Shown here: piece by piece, positions 16,530 through 22,471 of the stretch | Layout of the letters: each line of letters opens with the position of its first letter | Numbering within the stretch: the first letter of the stretch is position 1 | IMG/VR virus record: IMGVR_UViG_3300016665_000074 | Span: 1 to 39,425 of that record | Strand: one strand, 5' to 3' | Length of the DNA stretch: 39,425 bases | From: a virus | Lineage: Duplodnaviria > Caudoviricetes | Notes under the pieces: model-generated | Told to the model about the DNA's origin: nothing | The model's input: the letters and a program-made list of their open reading frames with translations, nothing else | Databases searched by the model: none | Made by a program: the position numbers and the translations under genes

Positions 16530-16579
16530 TTGCTTTTCTCCTGTCTTCGCTAGACCCTGCGCCTAGCTAGTGCCCTAAT

Positions 16580-16635
16580 AGAGTCTCGAACTCTGCGCCC
16601 TCTGTCAAGGGTTTAGGGCTGTGAGTTGCCTCACA
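16580..16635 (-). promoter_or_regulatory. Second early promoter with perfect CRP/GlxR box
   Basis: TTGACA at 16608-16603, weak -10 (GACTCT, 17-nt spacer); TGTGA-GTTGCC-TCACA at 16620-16635. Confidence 0.7.
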
Positions 16636-16643
16636 TTTATGCC

Positions 16644-16805
16644 TTAAGACTTCTTTTTTCTAACTCCTATGAGTTGCATTGTTGCGTCCTTGTCTATTGC
16701 TTGAATCTCTTTCAAGAAATCTAACGCCTCGCGTGACGAGTTGAAAGTATCCACCATAAGAACCTTGTTCTTTTTGCCGTTCCAGATTGCGATTTCCATT
16801 TCCAT
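16644..16805 (-). CDS. 53-aa hypothetical protein (absent from ORF track)
   Basis: MEMEIAIWNGKKNKVLMVDTFNSSREALDF...; 15-mer start element. Confidence 0.75.
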   Translation of the reverse strand: MEMEIAIWNGKKNKVLMVDTFNSSREALDFLKEIQAIDKDATMQLIGVRKKKS

Positions 16806-16840
16806 TGTTTGCTTTCTCCTGTCTTAAGTCTGAATTGCTT

Positions 16841-16890
16841 GAGCTCATCAGTAGGGGCACTACCCCTAGACCCCTTGCGGGGTTTCGCTC
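16841..16890 (-). ncRNA. Hammerhead ribozyme, type II
   Basis: GAGC-GAAA-CCCC(GCAA)GGGG-UC-UAGGGG(UAGUG)CCCCUA-CUGAUGA-GCUC: complete core, three stems, GUC cleavage triplet. Confidence 0.93.
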
Positions 16891-17516
16891 TACGCTGTAG
16901 CTATAAAGTGGGTCTCACAATTTGAGCAGATTGGGGCGCATAGTTCTAGAGTCTTAAGACTTAAGCGGATTTTCTCACCGCAACGACATTGCGCCACTTT
17001 TAGATTCTTATTGCGTCCTTTAGTCTTTCCTGCGCTCTCGCTGTCTGCCATTAGTGCTAGAGCATTCTCGATTAGAGTTAGAGCGTCAGCCCAGCGGGCT
17101 GCGCACTCGTCGGATACCTCGGTAACGCTCCACCCAATCCCCTGCGCATTGGTAATCGTTAGGCCTAGAGCCTCGGCGGTGGCCTTAAATTTCTTATTGT
17201 GGTATCCGTCCCCTGTCACGCCTTGAATGCCTGCCTGTAGGTCTAGAGAGTGGGCTACCTCGTGAAGAAGAGTTCCCAATACCGCCCGAGCTCCTCGCTC
17301 GAAATAGTTAGCGGAAATCATAATCTCGTGGAAAGATTCTTCGCCCGCTTTCCATAATTTTGCGTGAGTAAAGTGTCCCATTGTGCGCCCTGTCTTACGG
17401 GTCACTAGGATAGTGGCGCGGGGGGCTCCTGTCTTTTCTCTAATAATCTCGTGAGCTCCCTCTAGGGCTGAAACAATCCCCGAGAGGTTCTCGGTTTTGG
17501 TAAGTGTTGCGGTCAT
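16890..17516 (-). CDS. SprT-like Zn metalloprotease with C-terminal Zn ribbon
   Basis: TLLHEVAH (HExxH), YHNKKF, CRC..CSNC; first gene of the early operon. Confidence 0.85.
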   Translation of the reverse strand: MTATLTKTENLSGIVSALEGAHEIIREKTGAPRATILVTRKTGRTMGHFTHAKLWKAGEESFHEIMISANYFERGARAVLGTLLHEVAHSLDLQAGIQGVTGDGYHNKKFKATAEALGLTITNAQGIGWSVTEVSDECAARWADALTLIENALALMADSESAGKTKGRNKNLKVAQCRCGEKIRLSLKTLELCAPICSNCETHFIATA

Positions 17517-17558
17517 TGCTTGAGTCTCCTGTCTCGAGGTATTTCCTCGAATGGCTAA

Positions 17559-17588
17559 ACCTTACGCCCTAAGGCGTGAGCCTGTCAA
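17559..17588 (-). promoter_or_regulatory. First early SigA-type promoter
   Basis: TTGACA (17588-17583)-N18-TAAGGT (17564-17559); 5' hairpin TCGAGG/CCTCGA just downstream. Confidence 0.75.
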
Positions 17589-18085: not shown

Positions 18086-18218
18086 AACCTGTTCGGTTTT
18101 CCGATTTGAACAGGTTATCTTATATGTATAGATATTTATATATCTATACGGAGCGTCGCTCCGCCTCTTGCGGGCTACGCGACTATATATAATATATATA
18201 ATTATATATAATATATAT
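18086..18218. repeat. Cluster of inverted repeats and AT-alternating palindromes upstream of terminase
   Basis: AACCTGTTC/GAACAGGTT; GTATAGATAT/ATATCTATAC; CGGAGC-GTC-GCTCCG; near-perfect 32-bp AT palindrome. Confidence 0.8.
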
Positions 18219-18283
18219 CAGGGTGGGTGTATTCTGACCGTTTAACGGTAGCCGTTTATATTAAGTTTTTATCGGGGGATTAA

Positions 18284-21934: not shown

Positions 21935-22471
21935 TTGACAACGATTATTGGAATCGAATATGAAGACCGTGCAGTTATCGTTGCCGATTCTCGGGTAACA
22001 GATGACTCAGGTCGTATCTATGCTCACAAAGTAATGAAGAAAATTTCTAAGCGAGGTTCGATACTAATCGCAGGAGCAGGAGAAGTAGCTCCTTGTGATA
22101 TCGCTCAGAACATTTGGGTACCACCAGCATTTACAGCGAAAGACAAGAAAGATGTCTATCGCTTTATGATTACCAAAGTAATGCCATCACTTCGCAAATG
22201 TTTGGTTGAAAATGGTTACAACTTTGATGAAGATAAGAAAGACGGAATGCGATTCCAGTTTCTTATTTCAGTCGGTGGACAAATGTTTGATGTAGCTGAA
22301 GACTTATCAGTTATGAAAAGTGATGACAATATGTACGCCATAGGTAGTGGTGGAGCATTCGCATTGGGCGCACTTTATGCAGGAGCAACTCCACATCAAG
22401 CTATGGATATTGCTTGTAGAGTTAGTGCTTATTCAGCACCTCCGTTTTACGAAGAAGTGCAATACAAGTGA
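21935..22471 (+). CDS. Ntn-hydrolase protease (HslV / proteasome beta-like)
   Basis: N-terminal (M)TTIIG, ADS, KK, AGAG, AIGSGG motifs; TTG start with GGAGGGG RBS. Confidence 0.85.
   Translation: MTTIIGIEYEDRAVIVADSRVTDDSGRIYAHKVMKKISKRGSILIAGAGEVAPCDIAQNIWVPPAFTAKDKKDVYRFMITKVMPSLRKCLVENGYNFDEDKKDGMRFQFLISVGGQMFDVAEDLSVMKSDDNMYAIGSGGAFALGALYAGATPHQAMDIACRVSAYSAPPFYEEVQYK

What the first reader, a model, noticed from the sequence alone, without database searches (positions are those of the whole stretch)
16841..16890. Intact hammerhead ribozyme immediately after the first early gene
Seen: the minus strand reads GAGC GAAA CCCC-GCAA-GGGG UC^ UAGGGG-UAGUG-CCCCUA CUGAUGA GCUC, containing every hammerhead core nucleotide with stems I, II and III (type II topology). 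It starts on the last base of the SprT stop codon. Predicted cleavage is between 16869 and 16868, about 60 nt before the next start codon. Known: hammerheads self-cleave after NUH, leave a 5'-OH end, and have been reported in phages. Inference: it cuts the early polycistron so that SprT mRNA is uncoupled from downstream genes, whose new 5'-OH hairpin end could be more nuclease-resistant.
Basis: partly seen in the sequence, partly recalled or inferred. Interest (0 to 1): 0.85.

Follow-up and report, generated by a model that had tools for sequence, protein, structure and literature searches.

The report
Self-cutting RNA punctuating phage early genes
A freshwater phage has a complete hammerhead ribozyme sequence between its first two early genes, which likely cuts the long early message into gene-sized pieces (a known phage arrangement); this one also carries a conserved hairpin predicted to lock the cut, and related phages have a miniature tRNA look-alike in the same gap.

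Summary
Minus-strand 16890-16841 is a complete type II hammerhead: 0 of 400 shuffles give an equal one, 23 of 42 relatives keep it behind sprT, and 10 of 18 pairs covary. The phage is close to cultured 'Ca. Planktophila' phages E7/F5 (terminase 79%).

The arrangement is not rare: about 920 viral stretches match a type II pattern, and clusters between phage genes were described in 2011. It is not SprT-specific.

Two additions. (1) It belongs to a pseudoknot-less subtype that scores below Rfam's threshold. Its 3' tail carries UCAG, complementary to the catalytic CUGA: 24/24 in this lineage, 57/161 of the subtype versus 2/163 of the long-stem-I form, replicated 12/50 in cellular genomes. The pairing stops exactly at the core edge. 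It likely refolds the downstream product and blocks re-ligation. (2) In 14 relatives a mini-tRNA fills the same gap. One also follows gene 2 here, and E7/F5 carry several. This scan noted that swap earlier on other DNA.

No cleavage or RNA evidence. New variant of a known kind.

The parts
17559..17588 (-). Likely early promoter (TTGACA, 18 nt, TANNNT) ahead of sprT
   Evidence: Read by eye; a similar site lies before sprT in L015, L017, L018. The promoter scan did not call it.
17534..17550 (-). Hairpin at the inferred 5' end of the early transcript
   Evidence: Fold
16890..17516 (-). sprT-like metalloprotease gene, 208 aa; its UAG overlaps the ribozyme
   Evidence: PF10263 E 3e-6; 48 related loci
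16891..16891 (-). Conserved A (middle A of the stop codon), five bases before G12; likely tertiary partner of the loop I U at 16862
   Evidence: A in 155/161 viral and 47/50 cellular subtype members, not asked for by the patterns; U opens loop I in 47/51 short-stem hits from scans that did not ask for it
16841..16890 (-). Type II hammerhead ribozyme without loop I/tail pseudoknot; predicted cut 16869/16868
16830..16833 (-). UCAG, complementary to core CUGA (16851-16848); predicted alternative hairpin 16851-16830
16816..16829 (-). Repeated near-palindromic box plus Shine-Dalgarno sequence before gene 2
   Evidence: the same box+SD precedes several early genes
16644..16805 (-). Gene 2, 53 aa, no Pfam match; lies between the hammerhead and the mini-tRNA
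16620..16635 (-). Hairpin directly before the mini-tRNA; predicted 3' end of the gene 2 message
16568..16619 (-). Mini-tRNA: 7-bp acceptor-like stem starting with G, one hairpin, T-arm-like hairpin, then A-C-N-N
   Evidence: not called by ARAGORN or Rfam
16549..16567 (-). Hairpin between the mini-tRNA and the SD of gene 3

Best explanation
This is a complete type II hammerhead sequence that likely cuts the phage's early transcript between sprT and gene 2, as one of a series of punctuation marks that would turn one long message into gene-sized mRNAs with folded ends. Shown: core, three covarying stems, position, conserved A and U, and the UCAG tail. Inferred: host RNA polymerase transcribes from the promoter before sprT; the ribozyme folds using a single loop I U to stop-codon A contact in place of a pseudoknot and cuts after C16869. 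Type II topology leaves each product its own hairpin: sprT mRNA ends in stem III plus a cyclic phosphate, and gene 2 mRNA starts with a 5'-OH stem I. Only the 4-bp stem II holds the halves together. UCAG then likely captures the freed CUGA strand, stacking on stem I, which would drive release, block re-ligation and cover the single strand before the SD. The mini-tRNA behind gene 2 likely does the same job through host RNase P.
For: 23 of 42 relatives with sequence past the sprT stop keep the hammerhead; 6 of the 48 contigs end earlier. 99.7% of cells pair, 10 of 18 pairs change on both sides and all 6 stem I pairs covary; 0/500 shuffles reach this, and slid controls give 0-2 such pairs (alignment fitted to the model). 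In three runs holding close strains the only listed change inside 16841-16890 is the free position N7. The other 19 relatives carry another structured RNA in the gap: 14 mini-tRNA, 5 long hairpins. Phage type II hammerheads sit within 9 nt of an upstream stop in 238 of 310 cases, a median 51-54 nt before the next start. UCAG is in 24/24 sprT-linked copies, and precedes the box+SD in 17/17 cases with a core upstream against 0/85 without. It is in 21 of 107 sequence clusters (shuffle mean 5.8, max 16), with N7 covarying: C:G 10/11, U:A 7/10. It extends into stem I in only 1 of 57. It replicates in cellular genomes, 12/50 against shuffle mean 2.6, max 8. The alternative hairpin has probability 0.74 in the window's 3' product. 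Clustered phage hammerheads cut native polycistrons in vitro (PMC3088659).
Against: No cleavage or transcript was seen. With sprT coding sequence attached, ViennaRNA gives stem II a probability of 0.003 and the alternative hairpin 0.89 (no tertiary energy), so the ribozyme may often be misfolded. The pseudoknot that speeds type II ribozymes is absent (best 3 bp). 104 of 161 subtype members have no UCAG. The fifth pair is not kept in this lineage: U.U in the window, C.A and U-A in close strains. At looser clustering (0.62, 0.58) the sets collapse and N7 pairs in only 4/8 and 2/4. The 17/17 and 24/24 counts are one lineage. On the SprT tree the hammerhead loci form one side of a branch (79/93), so the slot changed about twice, not repeatedly. 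Cultured E7/F5 lack type II hammerheads.
Confidence: 0.62

Rival explanations
1. Translation-coupled switch. A ribosome ending on the sprT stop covers the first stem II strand and GAAA, UCAG captures the core, and the message stays whole; cutting happens mainly when sprT is not being translated.
For: Stem II overlaps the stop codon, 3-8 nt from G12 in this lineage. With that strand masked the alternative hairpin has probability 0.75. It dominates the modelled precursor in 30 of 57 UCAG carriers.
Against: Overlap with the stop also holds for the long-stem-I form, which lacks UCAG (123/157), and for the hairpins before many mini-tRNAs, so genome compaction suffices. Two thirds of the subtype lack UCAG.
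Confidence: 0.17
2. The cut destabilises rather than protects: it starts decay of one product and so times the shut-off of early genes.
For: glmS self-cleavage is followed by RNase degradation (PMC6765202 passage). That RNase J attacks 5'-OH ends is recalled, not from a call.
Against: Both products begin or end in a hairpin at the cut. The primary transcript and the mini-tRNA slots show the same hairpin-at-the-end design.
Confidence: 0.13
3. The elements are mainly DNA-level cassette borders or hitch-hiking repeats that let early genes be shuffled by recombination; cleavage is incidental.
For: Genes between the elements vary widely, and each unit ends in a similar box+SD.
Against: Stems diverge with compensatory changes while the catalytic core is kept, which lowers DNA homology but keeps the RNA fold.
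Confidence: 0.08

Closest known systems
Type II hammerheads clustered between prophage/phage genes (Perreault et al. 2011, PMC3088659; Rfam RF02276)
   Same: Core, topology, position between small phage genes, tandem copies, proposed processing into single-gene mRNAs. The upstream copies in relatives pass RF02276.
   Different: No loop I/tail pseudoknot, 4-bp stem II, 23.5 bits against 37. UCAG tail complementary to the core. Slot shared with a mini-tRNA. Pseudoknot-less type II examples do appear in that paper's Figs S4/S5.
Viroid/satellite hammerheads with a loop I U to loop II A reverse-Hoogsteen contact (review PMC6155905)
   Same: U opening loop I and an A next to a 4-bp stem II
   Different: Loop II does not exist here; the A comes from the upstream stop codon. 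DNA phage, not a circular RNA.
RNase III sites punctuating the phage T7 early transcript (recalled, no call)
   Same: One early polycistron cut into gene-sized mRNAs with structured ends
   Different: Protein nuclease on long hairpins, rather than self-cleavage or a tRNA mimic. The long hairpins in L040, L043-L045 and L048 may be of this kind (untested).
tRNA-like RNase P substrates: phage P1 C4 and P4 CI RNAs (recalled), mascRNA (search listing only)
   Same: For the neighbouring mini-tRNA: acceptor-like stem stacked on a T-arm-like hairpin
   Different: 48-52 nt, one middle hairpin, sits between stop codon and SD in series; no Rfam match at E<=1

Membership tests
Hammerhead ribozyme, type II permutation | Core C3 U4 G5 A6 N7 G8 A9 G12 A13 A14 A15 U16 H17 | tested here: met
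   against the consensus quoted in PMC3088659
Hammerhead ribozyme, type II permutation | Core-adjacent pairs 10.1-11.1, 1.1-2.1, 15.1-16.1 | tested here: met
   G-C, U-A, A-U
Hammerhead ribozyme, type II permutation | Stems I and III closed, stem II open, supported by covariation | tested here: met
Hammerhead ribozyme, type II permutation | A stem I-stem II tertiary contact | tested here: inconclusive
   U and A are conserved at the expected places; the pair itself is inferred
Hammerhead ribozyme, type II permutation | Mg-dependent self-cleavage after H17 | not testable with these tools
   Needs in vitro transcription
Rfam RF02276 Hammerhead_II (pseudoknotted consensus) | Loop I / 3' tail pseudoknot of 4 bp or more | tested here: not met
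   Best helix 3 bp in the window, 3-4 bp in its lineage, against 4-7 bp in the long-stem-I copies upstream of sprT
Rfam RF02276 Hammerhead_II (pseudoknotted consensus) | Gathering score 37 bits | tested here: not met
   23.5 bits; same-slot relatives 28-33 bits
tRNA gene (for the element at 16619-16568) | Cloverleaf with anticodon arm | tested here: not met
   One middle hairpin only; ARAGORN finds 0 genes
RNase P substrate (mini-tRNA) | 7-bp stem beginning G+1, stacked on a T-arm with a T-loop-like loop | tested here: met
   39 distinct copies, 3-4 pair types at each T-stem position; the descriptor required pairing
RNase P substrate (mini-tRNA) | 3' RCCA | tested here: not met
   A-C in 39/39 (required by the descriptor), full ACCA in 1/39
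RNase P substrate (mini-tRNA) | Cleavage by RNase P at G+1 | not testable with these tools
   Needs enzyme or infected-cell RNA

The most novel reading that the evidence does not exclude
Phages use a widespread, pseudoknot-less hammerhead subtype as a two-state RNA device: the stop codon of the upstream gene is a structural part of the ribozyme, and a downstream UCAG captures the catalytic strand, so cutting is set by ribosome traffic or made irreversible. Nanopelagicales phages use this ribozyme or an RNase P-recruiting mini-tRNA in the same slots of one early-gene processing programme.
Probability: 0.25. Interest if true: 0.8.

Novelty: new variant of a known kind. Interest (0 to 1): 0.52.

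Why it matters
What self-cleaving ribozymes do in phages is still open (PMC6155905, PMC6765202). A lineage where the same gap holds either a ribozyme or a tRNA mimic argues that the cut itself is what is selected. Its cultured relatives E7/F5 on 'Ca. Planktophila' LanE-43 carry the mini-tRNAs, so the idea can be tested in infected cells of an abundant freshwater bacterial group. The UCAG hairpin, if functional, would be a natural product-release or off-switch module in a hammerhead and a compact part for engineered RNA processing. The subtype is largely below Rfam's threshold, so it is under-annotated (about 470 viral stretches).

Tried and rejected
RNA evidence: no RNA holder listed. The one possible RNA run is probably DNA and does not cover the element. 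This is evidence neither way.

Long pseudoknot with the tail or with the downstream box: best 3 bp, no consistent covariation; rejected.

Sequestration of stem II by the end of the sprT coding sequence as a conserved switch: strong in the window (0.05 native vs 0.60 shuffled), weak in the lineage (0.21 vs 0.31), absent in the 140 others (0.32 vs 0.27); rejected as a general feature.

Terminator or internal promoter in the gap: none called. The TTGACA in the mini-tRNA loop varies among copies.

Antisense type II hammerhead: the descriptor run on both strands found none.

Mini-tRNA as twister-sister, pistol, C4 or tRNA: no Rfam match at E<=1 in 25 loci scanned.

Template-switch palindrome as the cause of UCAG: disfavoured, not excluded, because pairing stops at the core edge (1/57).

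General core-to-tail pairing over all subtype members is only modestly above shuffles (0.57 vs 0.41).

Motif searches in the supplements of PMC3088659 found nothing, but its alignment file is cut in storage.

Whether the host has RNase P, J or E was not tested. WhiB was not compared between the window and F5.

Full report
Setting. The window is a 39.4-kb, 45% G+C phage genome with a WhiB gene (PF02467), held by freshwater and aquaculture metagenome runs. Its terminase-like protein is 79% identical to that of records OX376640/OX376641. Their titles, LanE43-AprE7 and LanE43-AprF5, and lengths match the two cultured phages of 'Ca. Planktophila' LanE-43 in PMC10202952 (passages). A Nanopelagicales host is therefore likely (inference). 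A run of small minus-strand genes starts with sprT (PF10263) behind a promoter read by eye at 17588-17559, which the consensus scan did not call.

Observation. The element is exactly as described, with all core bases and core-adjacent pairs. A descriptor finds it once in the window, never in 400 shuffles at equal stem lengths, and 9 times in 400 at loose ones. Rfam misses it: nothing at E<=1 over the window, 23.5 of 37 bits locally.

Conservation. Of 48 sprT loci, 6 end before the stop. Of the other 42, 23 have this hammerhead 3-8 nt behind the stop, 14 a mini-tRNA (3 of them a looser form that my script labelled 'hairpin') and 5 long hairpins. On 23 distinct aligned sequences 10 of 18 pairs change on both sides, including all six of stem I. 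No shuffle of 500 reaches this (the alignment was fitted to a model built on 21 of these sequences). In contigs of close strains the only listed change within the ribozyme is N7, with eight changed sites in the flanks. Many relatives have more copies: 14 loci hold two and 5 hold three, of 27 with any. The upstream copies are mostly pseudoknotted and several pass RF02276.

How common. A generic type II pattern matches an estimated 920 stretches of IMG/VR, and a pattern for the short-loop form about 470. Of 329 distinct hammerheads in hand, 163 have a long stem I (mostly pseudoknotted), 161 are the window's short form, and 5 fit neither. Both forms hug the upstream stop codon (123/157 and 115/153 within 9 nt; no formal null) and lie a median 51-54 nt before a start codon. 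Perreault et al. 2011 (PMC3088659; passages) already describe hammerheads flanking single genes in prophages, show that such clusters cut native polycistrons in vitro, and propose single-gene mRNAs. Their Figs S4 and S5 (garbled text) include type II examples without a pseudoknot; as I read the scrambled table, the pseudoknot share is 0.22 for stem II of 4 bp or more. So neither the context nor the subtype is new in itself. Reviews still call the function open (PMC6155905, PMC6765202, PMC10085705; passages).

Tertiary contact. The base five before G12 is A in 155/161 viral and 47/50 cellular short-form members, although no pattern asked for it. Loop I opens with U in 47/51 hits from scans that did not ask for it. 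This fits the reverse-Hoogsteen pair conserved in type I and III hammerheads; the pair here is inferred. In the window that A is the middle base of the stop codon.

The UCAG tail. UCAG, the complement of core CUGA, follows stem II in 24/24 sprT-linked copies. It precedes the repeated box+SD in 17/17 instances behind a core and 0/85 others (one lineage). Across phages it is in 57/161 short-form against 2/163 long-form members, and in 21 of 107 clusters at 70% likeness (shuffles: mean 5.8, max 16 of 2000). In cluster representatives the partner of N7 is G in 10/11 with C7 and A in 7/10 with U7. The helix extends into stem I by a Watson-Crick pair in 1 of 57. In 99 loci from cellular genomes, 46 held a hammerhead; 12 of 50 short-form members have UCAG (shuffle mean 2.6, max 8) and N7 pairs in 10 of 12, G-U included (2 of the 50 also occur in the viral set). 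Against: two thirds lack it, looser clustering leaves too few sets to judge (4/8, 2/4), and the fifth pair is U.U here and C.A or U-A in close strains. Modelled probability of the hairpin is 0.74 in the window's 3' product, 0.34 in a short precursor and 0.89 in a long one (no tertiary energy). I found no description of it in nine paper searches (listings only, apart from the five papers read in passages). Subscription papers and the cut Dataset S1 of PMC3088659 were not seen.

The mini-tRNA. Behind gene 2 lies a hairpin, then a 7-bp stem starting with G, one hairpin, a T-arm-like hairpin, A-C-U-A, another hairpin and the SD. A descriptor gave 103 hits, 39 distinct, in 62 of 89 sequences; 40 of those were fetched by a pattern for it. 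Pair types vary freely in the T-stem (pairing was required). ARAGORN and Rfam do not call it. E7 has three by script; F5 shows two by eye in its gaps; neither has a type II hammerhead or a close SprT. On a tree of 36 distinct SprT proteins (L048 left out as partial) the hammerhead loci form one side of a branch (79/93; 78% of bootstrap trees). So the slot was replaced about twice, direction unknown.

Mechanism. Shown: sequence, structure by covariation, position, conserved A/U, UCAG. Inferred: transcription, cleavage, structured ends on both products, release and locking by UCAG, RNase P on the mini-tRNA. I put active self-cleavage near 0.85, punctuation with protected ends at 0.62, a translation-coupled switch at 0.17, timed decay at 0.13 and DNA-level cassette borders at 0.08. 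For UCAG alone: lock about 0.5, off-switch 0.2, neutral 0.3.

Verdict. Real and conserved. A hammerhead of type II topology, not a member of the pseudoknotted Rfam family. Ordinary in context, with one undescribed feature (as far as searched) and a testable swap partner. New variant of a known kind, interest 0.52.

Noticed in passing
window, 21 sites on both strands, e.g. minus 16829, 16194, 15675, 15167, 15006, 14704, 17929: A 9-base near-palindromic box, often fused to the SD of early genes and also present in promoters of relatives; far above chance (under 1 expected). Possibly an operator for a phage regulator.
   Followed up: partly
window 16619-16568 (-); L464 minus strand 36905, 37319, 37679; L465 about 23040 and 23550: Mini-tRNA family without Rfam match, present in cultured phages E7 and F5
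   Followed up: yes
L040, L043, L044, L045, L048, behind the sprT stop: Long hairpin with internal loop followed by a small hairpin in place of the ribozyme; possibly RNase III sites
   Followed up: no
L001, about 870-960 (before sprT): A different G+C-rich structured element in the slot where relatives have a hammerhead; no Rfam match
   Followed up: partly
window about 18100-18260; similar in L006, L007, L008, L016, L042: AT-rich stretch with alternating TA runs around a G+C-rich hairpin, between the early promoter and the terminase gene; candidate origin or packaging site
   Followed up: no
L012 1293 and L046 2918: Pseudoknotted hammerheads with GUA rather than GUC at the cut site
   Followed up: no
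window 21935-22471 (+): Proteasome-subunit-like gene (PF00227, E 4e-7) behind the portal-like gene
   Followed up: no
L037 2091-2163 (-): A true tRNA gene near the early promoter in one relative
   Followed up: no
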